Shown here: positions 1,731 through 11,040 of the stretch, one piece after another
How positions within the stretch are numbered: the stretch's first letter is position 1
Layout of the letters: every line of letters starts with the position of its first letter
Assembly: GCF_044324875.1 (NCBI RefSeq)
Contig: NZ_CP172185.1
Reading direction: 5' to 3' (one strand)
DNA: 64,000 nt
Origin: Escherichia coli
GTDB taxonomy: Bacteria > Pseudomonadota > Gammaproteobacteria > Enterobacterales > Enterobacteriaceae
Made by a program: the position numbers and the translations under genes
Notes under the pieces: model-generated
Told to the model about the DNA's origin: nothing
The model's database searches: none
Seen by the model: only the letters and a program-made list of their open reading frames with translations

Positions 1731-1958
1731 TGAATAAATCCTTTAGTTATTTTATTTGCCTTTTCATCCCCATTTTGGGGAGTGAAAGCATCCTAAAGGA
1801 GAAGTTCAGTTAGCCGATAAATATCATTTGTTACGCCTTAAGTAAAACCTTAATCAAATAATTCTTCTGAAATGATAATAAGTCTGGTGAATGTATTGAA
1901 GATAATACATACAAAATAAAAATTATACTTTTAATTTGCTATACGTTATTCTGCGCGG

Positions 1959-2067
1959 GTTATATGCCTTTATTGTCACAGATTTTATTTTCTGTTGGGC
2001 CATTGCGTTGCTACTGATTTTCCAACATATAAAAAGACAAGCCCGAACAGTCGTCCGGGCTTTTTTT
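1959..2067 (+). ncRNA. micC: MicC small regulatory RNA (ompC-targeting, Hfq-dependent)
   Basis: Sequence gttatatgcctttattgtcacagattttattttctgttgggccattgc...caagcccgaacagtcgtccgggcttttttt matches the MicC sequence as I remember it, ending in a hairpin plus T-run; lies in the ompN-ydbK intergenic region as in K-12. Confidence 0.85.
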
Positions 2068-2096
2068 TAGAATTGGATAATTCTTATCCAGAGCAT

Positions 2097-6690: not shown

Positions 6691-7680
6691 TTAAACCAGT
6701 TCGTTCGGGCAGGTTTCGCCTTTTTCCAGATTGCTTAAGTTTTGCAGCGTAGTCTGAGAAATACTGGTCAGTGCTTCTGCTGTCAGGAATGCCTGGTGCC
6801 CGGTAAACAGCACGTTGTGGCAGGCAGACAGACGACGGAATACGTCATCCTGGATCACGTCGTTGGATTTGTCTTCAAAGAACAGATCGCGTTCGTTCTC
6901 ATACACGTCCATACCCAACGAACCAATTTTCTGATTTTTCAGCGCTTCAATTGCCGCCTGAGAATCAATCAATGCACCGCGACTGGTATTGACGATCATC
7001 ACGCCATTTTTCATCTGATCGAAGGCGGCTTCGTTCAACAGATGGTAGTTTTCCGGTGTCAGCGGGCAGTGCAGAGAGATAACGTCTGATTCAGAGAACA
7101 GGGTTGGCAGATCGACATACTCCACACCGAGTTCCAGTGCCGCCGCACTTGGATACGGATCGAACGCCAGCAGACGCATACCAAAACCTTTCAGAATGCG
7201 CAGCATCGCCACACCGATTTTACCGGTACCGATAACGCCTGCCGTTTTGCCATACATAGTAAAGCCGGTCAGACCTTCCAGAGAGAAGTTGGCGTCACGA
7301 GTACGCTGATACGCGCGATGAATACGGCGGTTCAGCGTCATCATCATACCGATGGCGTGTTCAGCAACGGCTTCTGGATCATAGGCTGGAACACGGACTA
7401 CTTTCAGCCCCAGTTCTTTTGCCGCGTCAAGGTCGACGTTATTGAAACCGGCACAGCGCAGGGCGATATATTTAACGCCGTGCTTTTTCAGCTCTTCCAG
7501 CACCGGGCGGCTGCCGTCATCGTTTACGAAAATACATACCGCTTCGCAGCCATTGGCGGTTTTAGCGGTTTTTTCCGTCAGCAGAAAGTCAAAAAATTCC
7601 AGCTCAAAGCCAAAGGACTCGTTCACCTGTTGCAGGTACTTCTTGTCGTACTGTTTTGTGCTATAAACGGCGAGTTTCAT
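6691..7680 (-). CDS. ldhA: fermentative D-lactate dehydrogenase, NAD-dependent
   Basis: 329-aa ORF MKLAVYSTKQYDKKYLQQVNE...; D-isomer 2-hydroxyacid dehydrogenase family with NAD-binding motif GVIGTGKIG. Confidence 0.9.
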   Translation of the reverse strand: MKLAVYSTKQYDKKYLQQVNESFGFELEFFDFLLTEKTAKTANGCEAVCIFVNDDGSRPVLEELKKHGVKYIALRCAGFNNVDLDAAKELGLKVVRVPAYDPEAVAEHAIGMMMTLNRRIHRAYQRTRDANFSLEGLTGFTMYGKTAGVIGTGKIGVAMLRILKGFGMRLLAFDPYPSAAALELGVEYVDLPTLFSESDVISLHCPLTPENYHLLNEAAFDQMKNGVMIVNTSRGALIDSQAAIEALKNQKIGSLGMDVYENERDLFFEDKSNDVIQDDVFRRLSACHNVLFTGHQAFLTAEALTSISQTTLQNLSNLEKGETCPNELV

Positions 7681-7887
7681 AAGACTTTCTCCAGTGATGT
7701 TGAATCACATTTAAGCTACTAAAAATATTTTACAAAATTTCAAATATAATTGAAAGCTATGGCGATATTGAAAAATTCATCAACAACTATGCTTAGTGTA
7801 GGCGCAACCTTCAACTGAACGGTTAAACATGCCACAATACCCGTATTGAATGCTTAATTTTTCGCTAAATCAGGATATTAACTACCC

Positions 7888-10527
7888 ATGCTGGGTAAAT
7901 ATAAAGCCGTTCTCGCGCTGTTATTACTGATTATTCTTGTGCCGTTGACGCTGCTGATGACGCTCGGCCTGTGGGTTCCCACGCTGGCGGGCATCTGGCT
8001 ACCGCTCGGGACACGTATTGCATTAGATGAAAGCCCACGCATTACGCGTAAAGGTTTAATCATCCCCGATCTCCGTTATCTGGTGGGAGATTGTCAGCTT
8101 GCGCATATCACCAACGCCAGCCTTTCACATCCCAGCCGCTGGTTATTGAACGTCGGCACGGTAGAACTTGATTCTGCTTGTCTGGCGAAATTGCCGCAGA
8201 CGGAGCAATCGCCTGCCGCTCCAAAAACCCTCGCGCAGTGGCAGGCCATGTTGCCTAACACCTGGATCAATATCGATAAACTGATTTTTTCTCCCTGGCA
8301 GGAGTGGCAGGGAAAACTCTCTCTCGCGTTAACCTCTGATATCCAGCAACTGCGTTATCAGGGCGAAAAAGTTAAATTTCAAGGCCAGCTGAAAGGGCAA
8401 CAACTTACAGTCAGCGAACTGGATGTCGTCGCGTTTGAAAATCAGCCGCCGGTTAAACTGGTGGGGGAATTTACTATGCCGCTCGTGCCGGATGGACTTC
8501 CTGTAAGTGGTCATGCTACTGCGACGTTAAACTTGCCGCAGGAGCCTTCACTGGTGGATGCCGAGCTGGACTGGCAGGAAAATAGCGGGCAATTGATTGT
8601 GCTGGCACGGGATAACGGCGATCCGTTGCTCGATTTGCCGTGGCAAATTACTCGCCAACAATTGACCGTAAGCGATGGTCGCTGGAGCTGGCCGTATGCA
8701 GGTTTTCCTTTGAGTGGCCGACTGGGTGTTAAAGTCGACAACTGGCAGGCAGGGCTTGAGAACGCTCTGGTCAGCGGACGACTGAGTGTGCTGACCCAGG
8801 GGCAAGCGGGTAAGGGCAACGCGGTGCTTAATTTTGGCCCTGGAAAATTAAGCATGGATAACAGCCAGCTGCCTTTGCAGCTGACCGGTGAAGCGAAACA
8901 GGCGGATCTCATTTTATATGCCCGCTTACCTGCGCAGCTAAGCGGAAGTCTGACTGACCCAACGTTGGCCTTTGAGCCAGGTGCGTTATTACGTTCGAAG
9001 GGAAGAGTCATCGATTCGCTGGACATCGATGAAATCCGCTGGCCTTTAGCGGGTGTAAAAGTCACCCAACGTGGTGTTGACGGACGTTTGCAGGCCATTT
9101 TGCAGGCGCATGAAAATGAACTGGGCGATTTCGTGCTGCATATGGATGGACTGGCGAATGATTTTCTCCCTGACGCTGGCCGCTGGCAGTGGCGCTACTG
9201 GGGAAAAGGCAGTTTTACACCGATGAATGCCACCTGGGATGTCGCAGGAAAGGGTGAGTGGCATGACAGCACGATTACGCTGACCGATCTCTCCACCGGT
9301 TTCGACCAGTTACAATACGGTACGATGACGGTAGAAAAGCCGCGACTAATTCTCGATAAGCCCGTCGTCTGGGTACGTGACGCACAGCATCCCTCCTTTA
9401 GCGGCGCGCTGTCACTGGACGCCGGGCAAACGCTGTTTACTGGCGGCAGTGTGTTACCGCCATCAACCTTAAAATTTAGCGTCGATGGACGCGATCCGAC
9501 GTATTTCCTCTTTAAAGGCGATTTACATGCTGGTGAGATTGGCCCGGTTCGGGTAAATGGTCGCTGGGACGGTATTCGTCTGCGCGGTAACGCCTGGTGG
9601 CCTAAACAATCACTGACTGTATTCCAGCCGCTGGTGCCACCCGACTGGAAGATGAACTTACGCGATGGTGAACTGTATGCTCAGGTTGCATTTTCTGCTG
9701 CGCCTGAACAAGGATTCCGCGCGGGAGGGCACGGCGTGTTGAAAGGCGGTAGTGCCTGGATGCCAGATAATCAGGTTAACGGTGTCGATTTTGTCCTGCC
9801 TTTCCGTTTTGCTGATGGAGCCTGGCATCTGGGGACTCGCGGCCCCGTTACGTTGCGAATTGCCGAAGTGATTAATCTGGTGACAGCGAAAAATATTACG
9901 GCTGATTTGCAAGGGCGCTATCCGTGGACTGAAGAAGAACCATTGCTGTTGACTGATGTTAGCGTCGATGTGTTAGGCGGTAACGTGCTGATGAAACAAT
10001 TACGTATGCCGCAACATGACCCGGCGCTGTTGCGGCTGAATAATCTCTCATCCAGCGAACTGGTTAGCGCCGTCAATCCGAAACAATTCGCCATGTCCGG
10101 GGCATTTAGTGGTGCATTGCCGTTATGGCTAAACAACGAAAAATGGATAGTGAAGGATGGTTGGCTGGCAAATAGCGGGCCAATGACCTTGCGACTGGAT
10201 AAAGACACCGCAGATGCGGTAGTGAAAGACAATATGACCGCGGGTTCAGCAATTAACTGGTTGCGCTATATGGAAATTAGCCGTTCATCGACAAAAATTA
10301 ACTTAGATAATCTCGGTTTATTAACCATGCAGGCCAACATTACAGGTACCAGTCGCGTTGATGGTAAAAGCGGTACGGTAAACCTTAATTACCATCATGA
10401 AGAGAATATTTTTACGCTGTGGCGCAGTTTACGCTTTGGCGATAATCTCCAGGCATGGTTGGAGCAGAACGCACGTCTGCCGGGAAATGACTGTCCGCAA
10501 GGAAAAGAGTGTGAGGAAAAACAATGA
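7888..10527 (+). CDS. ydbH: AsmA-like large inner-membrane-anchored protein
   Basis: 879-aa ORF with N-terminal transmembrane segment; first gene of a ydbH-ynbE-ydbL arrangement in which the stop overlaps the ynbE start. Confidence 0.85.
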   Translation: MLGKYKAVLALLLLIILVPLTLLMTLGLWVPTLAGIWLPLGTRIALDESPRITRKGLIIPDLRYLVGDCQLAHITNASLSHPSRWLLNVGTVELDSACLAKLPQTEQSPAAPKTLAQWQAMLPNTWINIDKLIFSPWQEWQGKLSLALTSDIQQLRYQGEKVKFQGQLKGQQLTVSELDVVAFENQPPVKLVGEFTMPLVPDGLPVSGHATATLNLPQEPSLVDAELDWQENSGQLIVLARDNGDPLLDLPWQITRQQLTVSDGRWSWPYAGFPLSGRLGVKVDNWQAGLENALVSGRLSVLTQGQAGKGNAVLNFGPGKLSMDNSQLPLQLTGEAKQADLILYARLPAQLSGSLTDPTLAFEPGALLRSKGRVIDSLDIDEIRWPLAGVKVTQRGVDGRLQAILQAHENELGDFVLHMDGLANDFLPDAGRWQWRYWGKGSFTPMNATWDVAGKGEWHDSTITLTDLSTGFDQLQYGTMTVEKPRLILDKPVVWVRDAQHPSFSGALSLDAGQTLFTGGSVLPPSTLKFSVDGRDPTYFLFKGDLHAGEIGPVRVNGRWDGIRLRGNAWWPKQSLTVFQPLVPPDWKMNLRDGELYAQVAFSAAPEQGFRAGGHGVLKGGSAWMPDNQVNGVDFVLPFRFADGAWHLGTRGPVTLRIAEVINLVTAKNITADLQGRYPWTEEEPLLLTDVSVDVLGGNVLMKQLRMPQHDPALLRLNNLSSSELVSAVNPKQFAMSGAFSGALPLWLNNEKWIVKDGWLANSGPMTLRLDKDTADAVVKDNMTAGSAINWLRYMEISRSSTKINLDNLGLLTMQANITGTSRVDGKSGTVNLNYHHEENIFTLWRSLRFGDNLQAWLEQNARLPGNDCPQGKECEEKQ

Positions 10528-10709
10528 AAATTTTACTGGCTGCGTTGACGTCATCTTTTATGCTGGTTGGCTGTACGCCTCGCATTGAAGTCGCTGCACC
10601 TAAGGAACCGATCACTATCAATATGAACGTTAAAATTGAGCATGAGATCATCATCAAGGCAGACAAAGATGTCGAAGAGCTGCTTGAGACTCGTAGCGAT
10701 CTTTTCTGA
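10524..10709 (+). CDS. ynbE: small lipoprotein YnbE
   Basis: 61-aa ORF MKILLAALTSSFMLVGC (lipobox); start overlaps the ydbH stop. Confidence 0.8.
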   Translation: MKILLAALTSSFMLVGCTPRIEVAAPKEPITINMNVKIEHEIIIKADKDVEELLETRSDLF

Positions 10710-10713
10710 GGCG

Positions 10714-11040
10714 ATGATGAAGAGAAATTTAATGCTGTGTTTTGTCATTAATGCCTTATTTAGCACCAGTGCGATGGCTCTGACGCTGAATGACGCTCGA
10801 ACTCAGGGGCGTGTTGGCGAAACGTATAATGGTTATCTGGTTGCATTAAAGGCGGATACCGAAACACAGATGTTAGTCAAAAGGATTAATGAATCGCGTA
10901 ATAAGAGCTATCAACAACTCGCCATGAAAAATAATCTGCCGGTTGCGGAAGTGGAAAAATTGGCGGGGCAAAAACTGGTAGCAAAAGCTAAGCCTGGAGA
11001 ATACATTCGCGGGATAAACGGGATGTGGTTGCAAAAATAA
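10714..11040 (+). CDS. ydbL: periplasmic protein YdbL (DUF1318)
   Basis: Reading frame of ORF 10636..11040; start placed at ATGATG (10714), 4 bp after the ynbE stop, giving 108 aa with signal peptide MMKRNLMLCFVINALFSTSAMA. Confidence 0.8.
   Translation: MMKRNLMLCFVINALFSTSAMALTLNDARTQGRVGETYNGYLVALKADTETQMLVKRINESRNKSYQQLAMKNNLPVAEVEKLAGQKLVAKAKPGEYIRGINGMWLQK

What the first reader, a model, noticed from the sequence alone, without database searches (positions are those of the whole stretch)
7888..11040. ydbH-ynbE-ydbL: AsmA-like giant protein coupled to two small envelope proteins
The ydbH stop overlaps the ynbE start and ydbL begins 4 bp after ynbE. This pairs a large AsmA/TamB-like membrane-anchored protein with a 61-aa lipoprotein and a 108-aa periplasmic protein, suggesting an envelope lipid-transport complex with dedicated partners.
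Basis: partly seen in the sequence, partly recalled or inferred. Interest (0 to 1): 0.25.

Follow-up and report, generated by a model that had tools for sequence, protein, structure and literature searches.

The report
Known YdbH-YnbE-YdbL envelope lipid bridge operon
This is the ordinary E. coli ydbH-ynbE-ydbL operon, already shown experimentally to build an inner-to-outer-membrane bridge thought to carry phospholipids; the only unusual thing here is a rare, very divergent but intact-looking version of the small helper gene ydbL.

Summary
Three same-strand genes lie at 7888-11040: ydbH (879 aa), ynbE (61 aa, its ATG overlapping the ydbH stop as ATGA) and ydbL. Each matches its Pfam family strongly, and the locus is in 5417 of 5426 complete E. 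coli genomes. The order YdbH-like, YnbE-like, DUF1318 also holds in all 6 places sampled from YdbL relatives of 32-43% identity.

Kumar, Davis and Ruiz (PNAS 2024) showed that YdbH and the lipoprotein YnbE form an intermembrane bridge. They showed that YdbL acts as a chaperone-like regulator of YnbE multimerisation. A 2026 preprint gives the YdbL crystal structure and its binding site on YnbE.

One correction: the better-supported ydbL start is the second ATG (10717), giving a 7-nt gap and 107 aa, not 4 nt and 108 aa.

One new detail: YdbH is 99.5% and YnbE 100% identical to K-12, but YdbL is only 63% identical (dS about 1.6). This rare allele occurs in about 2% of complete E. coli genomes and starts a divergent tract in which the fea-tynA-paa genes found at this position in K-12 are absent. 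It keeps every family-conserved residue and nearly every functionally tested one, so it is probably functional.

Novelty: already known. Interest: low.

The parts
7681..7887 (+). ldhA-ydbH divergent intergenic region, which presumably holds the operon promoter
   Evidence: ldhA ends at 7680 on the minus strand and ydbH starts at 7888. The simple sigma-70 consensus scan found no site here, so the promoter is not located.
7888..10527 (+). ydbH: 879-aa inner-membrane-anchored AsmA-like (repeating beta-groove) protein
   Evidence: PF11739 YdbH-like E=1.7e-291, covering residues 14-862. NCBIfam equivalog NF007971 at 1400.6 bits against a cut-off of 824. 875/879 identical to K-12 YdbH.
7903..7971 (+). 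codons for the N-terminal transmembrane anchor of YdbH (about residues 6-28)
   Evidence: The five highest Kyte-Doolittle 19-residue windows start at residues 6-10. The sequence is KAVLALLLLIILVPLTLLMTLGL.
10513..10527 (+). ydbH/ynbE translational-coupling junction: GAGG, a 7-nt spacer, then ATGA (overlapping stop and start)
   Evidence: Read directly from the sequence. The junction is identical in K-12. PMC11126948 notes this ATGA coupling and the intragenic SD.
10524..10709 (+). ynbE: 61-aa outer-membrane lipoprotein that extends the YdbH groove
   Evidence: PF13617 YnbE-like lipoprotein E=3e-16. 100% amino-acid identity to K-12 YnbE. Lipobox LVGC at residues 14-17.
10611..10637 (+). codons for YnbE I30-I38, the strand predicted to pair with the last YdbH beta-strand
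   Evidence: The residues ITINMNVKI are identical to K-12. Their role comes from AlphaFold-Multimer models, cross-linking and proline mutants in PMC11126948.
10656..10706 (+). codons for the YnbE C-terminal helix K45-F61, the YdbL-binding segment
   Evidence: Sequence identical to K-12. Binding of the E39-F61 peptide to YdbL was shown by NMR and native MS in the 2026 preprint.
10708..10719 (+). ynbE/ydbL junction: GAGG (overlapping the ynbE stop) followed by tandem ATGs at 10714 and 10717
   Evidence: The SD spacing is 5 nt to 10717 and 2 nt to 10714. The first ATG is absent in L009.
10717..11040 (+). ydbL: 107-aa periplasmic DUF1318 protein, a chaperone-like regulator of YnbE, present here as a rare divergent allele
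   Evidence: PF07027 E=4.6e-29. Matches PDB 28oj_A 'Probable chaperone-like protein YdbL' at E=7.9e-34. 63% amino-acid and 68% nucleotide identity to K-12 ydbL. About 114-116 of 5411 genomes carry this allele.
10717..10779 (+). codons for the YdbL signal peptide (residues 1-21, ...SAMA|LTL)
   Evidence: The solved YdbL chain aligns from L22 onward. Only 9 of these 21 residues match K-12.
10720..15661 (+). context: a divergent tract that begins at the ydbL start and runs into a BigA/YdbA-type autotransporter gene; fea-tynA-paa are absent
   Evidence: Mismatches to K-12 jump from about 1-5% to 31-33% per 150 nt at ydbL. Window 11039-15368 has no K-12 match and similarity returns stepwise after that. 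PF25784 BigA_N matches the 11442.. ORF.

Best explanation
The region is the ydbH-ynbE-ydbL operon of E. coli or Shigella. YdbH is held in the inner membrane by one N-terminal helix and extends a long hydrophobic beta-groove into the periplasm. [quoted passage not shown] YnbE is lipid-anchored in the outer membrane. It adds its I30-I38 strand to the last strand of YdbH (beta-strand augmentation) and can stack further copies, which completes an intermembrane bridge. Phospholipid acyl chains are thought to slide along this bridge. The system is redundant with TamB and YhdP. YdbL is a small periplasmic protein that binds the C-terminal helix of YnbE. It limits runaway amyloid-like YnbE multimerisation, so enough YnbE remains free to dock on YdbH. 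The ratio of YdbL to YnbE matters, which fits the tight translational coupling seen in the sequence. Shown experimentally in K-12: genetic co-essentiality of ydbH and ynbE in a tamB yhdP mutant, YdbH-YnbE and YnbE-YnbE cross-links, binding of a YnbE peptide to YdbL, and toxicity of excess YdbL. Inferred: actual phospholipid transfer by YdbH, its direction, and the number of YnbE copies per bridge. In this window the ydbL gene is a rare, deeply divergent allele, most likely brought in by recombination together with the neighbouring autotransporter region. It is most likely still functional.
For: Gene calls and junctions. Family assignment. YdbH is 875/879 identical to K-12, including W791 and W857, the positions that cross-link to YnbE. 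YnbE is 100% identical. The locus is near-universal in E. coli. Gene order is conserved in 6 of 6 places from distant YdbL relatives. No plus-strand terminator-like site lies between the genes. Literature: PMC11126948, preprint 10.64898/2026.03.16.712125, PMC8593681, and P. aeruginosa PMC12447247. A solved YdbL structure exists in the PDB. For the allele: the synonymous distance to K-12 jumps from 0.096 (ydbH) and 0.025 (ynbE) to 1.63 (ydbL), with dN/dS 0.16. All 25 columns conserved at 70% or more across 133 family representatives are kept. Of the residues whose substitution impaired YdbL in the preprint, all are kept except I79 and R90. I79 is V here, which is the family majority. R90 is K here, a change tested and tolerated. 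The other differences at studied positions are E60S (E60A and E60D were tolerated) and K70M.
Against: No RNA data were available here, so co-transcription rests on gene overlap, conserved synteny and the literature. No convincing sigma-70 promoter was found upstream of ydbH. Direct lipid transport by YdbH-YnbE has not been demonstrated, as PMC11126948 itself states. The modelled bridge with one YnbE is still shorter than the periplasm, and the P. aeruginosa work suggests further outer-membrane partners may exist. The divergent YdbL allele differs from the tested protein at 28 of 86 mature positions, and its activity with the K-12-type YnbE has not been tested.
Confidence: 0.9

Rival explanations
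1. YdbL is a stable third structural subunit of the bridge, as the first reader's phrase 'complex with dedicated partners' can be read, rather than a transient chaperone-like regulator.
For: AlphaFold-Multimer and MultiFold2 models place YdbL on the YdbH C-terminus together with YnbE. [quoted passage not shown] The gene is kept next to ynbE in every distant locus sampled.
Against: YdbL is not needed for growth of tamB yhdP cells or for YdbH-YnbE cross-links. Excess YdbL is lethal in that background and reduces YnbE multimers. Free YdbL is degraded by DegP. ydbL tolerates deep allelic replacement next to an unchanged ynbE and ydbH.
Confidence: 0.12
2. The YdbH-YnbE bridge does not carry bulk phospholipid. 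Its cargo would be something else, such as lipoproteins or unfolded outer-membrane proteins, as proposed for other AsmA-like proteins.
For: Lipid transfer by YdbH has not been shown biochemically. Other AsmA-like proteins are linked to protein assembly (TAM) or to lipoprotein transport (GspN), going by the titles and abstracts listed.
Against: The literature reports redundancy with TamB and YhdP for outer-membrane lipid homeostasis. A 2025 preprint is titled 'Bacterial lipids traverse the hydrophobic groove of TamB'. The strand that YnbE contributes alternates hydrophobic and polar residues, which fits a lipid groove.
Confidence: 0.07
3. The divergent ydbL in this window arose by fast in-place evolution (diversifying or relaxed selection on YdbL), not by import of foreign DNA.
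For: ydbL has a higher dN/dS (0.16-0.22) than ydbH and ynbE (0.03-0.05) in every comparison. ydbL is polymorphic across E. coli: 635 of 5411 genomes are below 90% nucleotide identity to K-12.
Against: Synonymous sites are saturated (dS 1.63) next to a ynbE with dS 0.025, and the switch falls within about 10 nt. The divergent tract continues for several kb downstream, with different gene content. The allele is as far from other Escherichia alleles (70-72%) as it is from Citrobacter alleles (71-73%). Other alleles have different recombination breakpoints, including a mosaic within ydbL.
Confidence: 0.05

Closest known systems
E. coli K-12 YdbH-YnbE-YdbL system (b1381-b1383; Kumar, Davis and Ruiz, PNAS 2024, PMC11126948; De'Ath et al., bioRxiv 2026)
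   Same: Same locus between ldhA and the variable fea/paa/ydbA region. Same gene order and the same ATGA overlap. YdbH is 99.5% and YnbE 100% identical. The ynbE-ydbL junction is the same apart from one base.
   Different: YdbL is only 63% identical (107 aa against 108 aa). The genes downstream of ydbL differ: a BigA/YdbA-type autotransporter split by IS1 sits where K-12 has feaR, feaB, tynA and the paa genes.
TamA-TamB (TAM) and YhdP, the other two redundant AsmA-like bridges of E. coli
   Same: All are inner-membrane-anchored proteins with a beta-groove. The literature proposes that all move phospholipid to the outer membrane, and they are collectively essential.
   Different: YdbH is shorter. 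Its outer-membrane partner is a 61-aa lipoprotein that extends the groove by strand addition, rather than an Omp85 barrel (TamA) or a built-in C-terminal region (YhdP). It also has a dedicated periplasmic regulator. No sequence-level match to other AsmA-like Pfam families was detected here.
CsgC-CsgA (the curli chaperone that prevents premature amyloid growth)
   Same: The authors of PMC11126948 offer this as the functional analogy for YdbL. Both are small periplasmic proteins that hold back runaway beta-strand polymerisation of a partner.
   Different: This is an analogy only. Homology to CsgC was not examined here. YdbL binds an alpha-helix of YnbE rather than its polymerising strand.
P. aeruginosa YdbH (PA5307) and YnbE (PA5306)
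   Same: The genes are adjacent, and YdbH function depends on YnbE in a tamB yhdP background (PMC12447247).
   Different: The sequences are far apart (YnbE 49% identical; YdbH 24% over one sixth of its length, per that paper). That paper does not discuss YdbL.

Membership tests
YdbH family (Pfam PF11739; NCBIfam NF007971 equivalog) | Full-length match to the family model above the curated cut-off | tested here: met
   PF11739 scores 970.7 bits against a cut-off of 26.3, covering profile positions 1-892 of 893. NF007971 scores 1400.6 bits against 824.
YdbH family (Pfam PF11739; NCBIfam NF007971 equivalog) | Single N-terminal transmembrane anchor followed by a large periplasmic domain | tested here: met
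   The top hydropathy windows all fall at residues 6-28. The rest of the protein matches the YdbH-like model.
YdbH family (Pfam PF11739; NCBIfam NF007971 equivalog) | C-terminal region that contacts YnbE (cross-linking positions W791 and W857) | tested here: met
   Both tryptophans are present. The four differences from K-12 are at residues 196, 356, 361 and 493.
AsmA-like / repeating beta-groove superfamily | Elongated beta-groove (taco) fold with a hydrophobic interior | not tested
   No structure prediction was run, and no solved structure matches YdbH by sequence. The assignment rests on the literature.
AsmA-like / repeating beta-groove superfamily | Detectable sequence relationship to other AsmA-like families (AsmA, TamB/DUF490) | tested here: not met
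   hmmscan with the E-value limit raised to 10 gave only PF11739 and a sub-threshold DUF748 hit at E=0.065. Membership is defined by fold and clan, so this result lowers nothing about YdbH identity.
YnbE-like lipoprotein (Pfam PF13617) | Family model match plus a lipobox with the lipidated Cys | tested here: met
   PF13617 scores 59.3 bits against a cut-off of 25.8. LVGC lies at residues 14-17. The protein is 100% identical to K-12 YnbE.
YnbE-like lipoprotein (Pfam PF13617) | Outer-membrane localisation and beta-strand augmentation of YdbH | not testable with these tools
   Shown for the identical K-12 protein by fractionation, cross-linking and proline mutants.
YdbL / DUF1318 (Pfam PF07027) | Family model match and similarity to the solved YdbL structure | tested here: met
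   PF07027 scores 101.2 bits against a cut-off of 27. PDB 28oj_A matches at E=7.9e-34 over residues 22-107.
YdbL / DUF1318 (Pfam PF07027) | Conserved residues required for YdbL function and for YnbE binding | tested here: met
   L24, R28, E35, Y40, N58, R61, Y65, L68, N72, K86, L87, W104 and K107 are kept. I79 is V (the family majority) and R90 is K (tested and tolerated). E60 is S (E60A and E60D were tolerated).
YdbL / DUF1318 (Pfam PF07027) | Actual binding of this allele to YnbE and control of its multimerisation | not testable with these tools
   This needs biochemistry or genetics. It is only inferred here from residue conservation.
ydbH-ynbE-ydbL operon | Conserved order and strand of the three genes, with short gaps, across distant taxa | tested here: met
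   The Lipoprotein_19 then DUF1318 pair was found in 6 of 6 places. A YdbH-like gene lies upstream wherever the contig reaches that far (4 places). In the other two places, L005 and L008, the upstream gene is cut by the contig end.
ydbH-ynbE-ydbL operon | Co-transcription as one mRNA | not testable with these tools
   There are no RNA data. The ATGA overlap, the 7-nt gap and the absence of a plus-strand terminator-like site between the genes are consistent with it. The literature calls it an operon.

The most novel reading that the evidence does not exclude
The rare ydbL allele in this window is a natural partner-swap experiment. A YdbL as different from the K-12 protein as a Citrobacter YdbL is (63% identity overall, 67% over the mature protein) works beside a YnbE and YdbH that are essentially K-12. 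YdbL dosage and affinity set how much YnbE is free to dock on YdbH, so this allele could bind YnbE with a different affinity. It could also be translated at a different rate, because its early codons differ. Either change would shift the activity of the YdbH-YnbE bridge in the roughly 2% of E. coli and Shigella lineages that carry it. More broadly, ydbL is a recombination-prone, deeply polymorphic regulator sitting next to two strongly conserved structural genes.
Probability: 0.15. Interest if true: 0.3.

Novelty: already known. Interest (0 to 1): 0.1.

Why it matters
[quoted passage not shown] That significance belongs to work already published between 2021 and 2026; this window adds no new system. 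The window does show that ydbL can be replaced by a very divergent allele while its two partners stay unchanged. Every family-conserved residue survives that replacement, and so does nearly every residue that mutagenesis found important. This gives an independent, natural check on which YdbL positions matter. It also offers a ready-made variant for testing how tightly YdbL must match YnbE.

Tried and rejected
1. I looked for a sigma-70 promoter upstream of ydbH and for terminators between or after the genes. No promoter-like site was found upstream of ydbH, and no plus-strand terminator-like site lies between or after the genes. Transcript boundaries remain unknown.

2. I looked for sequence-level links from YdbH to other AsmA-like Pfam families at a relaxed threshold. 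None appeared.

3. I searched the PDB by sequence for YdbH. There was no match.

4. I checked the antisense ORFs inside the region, up to 195 aa, against Pfam. There was no credible hit, so I treat them as chance ORFs.

5. I asked whether the breakpoint at the ydbL start codon is a recurrent, selected boundary. I rejected this because other E. coli alleles break elsewhere. Strain 131 breaks about 2.1 kb into ydbH, and isolate DG342-2 (NZ_OZ392464.1) breaks in the middle of ydbL.

6. I looked for a donor of the rare allele. No named genus came closer than about 73% identity. The nearest relatives are unnamed metagenome contigs (87% and 77%), so the donor is unidentified.

7. I considered modelling a linker-fused YdbL-YnbE peptide with AlphaFold. 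I did not run it, because the tool returns no inter-residue contacts or PAE, so the interface could not be read.

8. I did not predict the YdbH structure. At 99.5% identity to the studied protein it would add nothing.
Full report
**Observation.** The ORF list and the raw sequence confirm three consecutive plus-strand genes.
- ydbH is 7888-10527 (879 aa).
- ynbE is 10524-10709 (61 aa).
- ydbL ends at 11040.
- The ynbE ATG (10524-10526) overlaps the ydbH stop (10525-10527) as ATGA. A GAGG motif lies 7 nt upstream of that ATG.
- After the ynbE stop the sequence reads GGCG ATG ATG, so there are two possible ydbL starts.

The second ATG (10717; 7-nt gap, 107 aa) is better supported, for three reasons.
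- The GAGG at 10708-10711 is 5 nt from 10717 but only 2 nt from 10714.
- The first ATG is missing in L009, the closest relative of this allele.
- RefSeq and the K-12 annotation both use the second ATG.

**Are they real genes?** Yes.
- Pfam matches each protein far above its cut-off. These are PF11739 'Intermembrane phospholipid transport protein YdbH' (E=1.7e-291), PF13617 'YnbE-like lipoprotein' (3e-16) and PF07027 DUF1318 (4.6e-29).
- NCBIfam calls YdbH an equivalog.
- The 3.8-kb stretch is found in 5417 of 5426 complete E. coli genomes, annotated as ydbH, ynbE and ydbL.
- YdbH has one N-terminal hydrophobic helix, and YnbE has the lipobox LVGC.
- YdbL has a signal peptide that ends where the solved YdbL chain begins.
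- Antisense ORFs within the region have no family support.

**Are the partners dedicated?** I sampled YdbL relatives of only 32-43% identity from a search of 1.8 billion cluster representatives and looked at their contigs.
- In all six places, a Lipoprotein_19 (YnbE-like) gene sits 10-47 nt upstream of the DUF1318 gene on the same strand.
- A YdbH-like gene sits upstream of that in the four places where the contig reaches far enough. In the other two, L005 and L008, the upstream gene is cut by the contig end.
- Within the window, no plus-strand terminator-like site separates the genes.
- Co-transcription itself cannot be tested with these tools.

**What it is and how it works.** This is the published YdbH-YnbE-YdbL system.

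YhdP, TamB and YdbH are redundant but collectively essential for outer-membrane lipid homeostasis (PMC8593681).

Kumar, Davis and Ruiz (PMC11126948) established the following.
- YnbE is in the outer membrane.
- YdbH residues W791 and W857 cross-link to YnbE in vivo, and this does not need YdbL.
- YnbE multimerises.
- Prolines placed in the I30-I38 strand of YnbE abolish function.
- Loss of YdbL increases YnbE multimers and lowers YdbH levels, while excess YdbL kills tamB yhdP cells.
- The paper explicitly notes the ATGA overlap and the translational coupling.

The 2026 preprint (10.64898/2026.03.16.712125) adds these points.
- It reports a 2.12 Å YdbL crystal structure. A YdbL entry is in the PDB as 28oj.
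- It shows by NMR and native mass spectrometry that YdbL binds the YnbE C-terminal helix.
- It reports an alanine scan of YdbL.
- It shows that DegP degrades free YdbL.

The dependence of YdbH on YnbE also holds in P. aeruginosa (PMC12447247).

Three things remain inferred: actual lipid transfer by YdbH, its direction, and the number of YnbE copies per bridge.

The window's YdbH is 875/879 identical to K-12, with W791 and W857 intact. Its YnbE is identical in protein. The experimental results therefore transfer directly. [quoted passage not shown]

**What is unusual here.** The ydbL gene is not the K-12 allele.
- Aligned to K-12, the DNA is nearly identical through ynbE and the ATGATGAAGA start. 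It then drops to about 68% identity.
- The YdbL protein is 63% identical to K-12.
- The synonymous distance to K-12 is 0.096 for ydbH and 0.025 for ynbE. For ydbL it is 1.63, which is saturated, with dN/dS 0.16.
- The mature protein is 70-72% identical to YdbL from other Escherichia species and 71-73% to Citrobacter YdbL. K-12 YdbL is 79-83% identical to those same Escherichia alleles. No donor was identified.
- About 114-116 of 5411 complete E. coli genomes carry this allele.
- The exact protein occurs on at least 1000 public contigs. Its 24-member 90% cluster also includes a Shigella-labelled sequence.

The divergent tract continues downstream.
- Window 11039-15368 has no K-12 counterpart.
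- The 19-kb fea-tynA-paa block of K-12 is absent.
- ydbL is followed directly by a BigA/YdbA-type autotransporter gene that is split by IS1.
- Identity to K-12 climbs back stepwise, from 84% to 93% to 97%, by position 19731.

ydbL is broadly polymorphic in E. coli: 143 genomes are 80-90% and 492 are 60-80% identical to the K-12 gene. Other alleles have other left breakpoints. Strain 131 breaks about 2.1 kb into ydbH and brings a YnbE with E52D and E55K. Isolate DG342-2 (NZ_OZ392464.1) breaks in the middle of ydbL. The boundary at the ydbL start codon is therefore one recombination outcome among several at the edge of a variable region, not a special feature.

**Is the rare allele functional?** Probably.
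- All 25 columns conserved at 70% or more across 133 family representatives are retained.
- Every residue whose substitution impaired YdbL in the preprint is kept, with two exceptions. I79 is V here, which is the family-majority residue. R90 is K here, a substitution that was tested and tolerated.
- The other differences at studied positions are E60S and K70M. E60A and E60D were tolerated, and K70 was flagged only by an NMR shift.
- All 28 differences in the mature protein fall in variable columns, apart from position 79, where the window has the consensus residue.
- dN/dS of 0.16 indicates purifying selection.

**Verdict.** The system is already known in detail, so novelty is 'already known' and interest is low. 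The rare ydbL allele is a minor, apparently unreported detail. It could serve as a natural variant for testing how specifically YdbL must match YnbE.

Noticed in passing
window 10717-11040, with E. coli genome hits H16, H97 and H98: ydbL is deeply polymorphic in E. coli while ydbH and ynbE are conserved. Against the K-12 gene, 143 genomes are 80-90% and 492 are 60-80% identical. At least three allele classes and mosaics exist, each with a different recombination breakpoint.
   Followed up: partly
window 11040-19730: The 19-kb feaR-feaB-tynA-paa block that follows ydbL in K-12 is absent. ydbL is followed directly by a BigA/YdbA-type autotransporter gene whose N-terminal 4.3 kb has no K-12 match. 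Ninety-five complete genomes cover at least 80% of the query window 11041-16500, which includes this gene.
   Followed up: partly
window 15662-16431: An IS1 copy interrupts the autotransporter gene. The K-12 coordinates flanking it overlap by 7 nt, consistent with a target-site duplication. Strain 7/2 has the same gene at 99.9% identity without the IS1.
   Followed up: partly
window 11744-11979: A 30-nt tandem repeat of 7.5 copies in the autotransporter N-terminus encodes repeated PVPPDDGGDT units. This is a likely length-variable linker.
   Followed up: no
window about 22041-22809 and about 39336-40105; also 18488-19693: There are two more IS1 transposase copies, plus a Mutator/IS256-family transposase inserted between the autotransporter gene and pdxI (ydbC). 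This is an unusually IS-rich stretch, reminiscent of Shigella. The best complete E. coli match to the ydbH region is only 99.1%.
   Followed up: no
window 1956-2076 (+), 39118-39181 (-), 40519-40670 (-): Rfam matches above gathering score are the MicC sRNA, the RydC sRNA and the sok antitoxin RNA of a hok/sok locus. An IS1 copy (about 39336-40105) lies just beyond rydC.
   Followed up: no
window 33312-34836: This 1.5-kb segment between hrpA and ydcF has no counterpart in the K-12 region I fetched. It contains a 152-aa ORF (33839-34297) with no Pfam match.
   Followed up: no
locus L004 3249-5354: A distant relative of the system has a much shorter YdbH-like protein (494 aa) followed by YnbE-like and DUF1318 genes. 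The length of the groove protein therefore varies widely between lineages.
   Followed up: no
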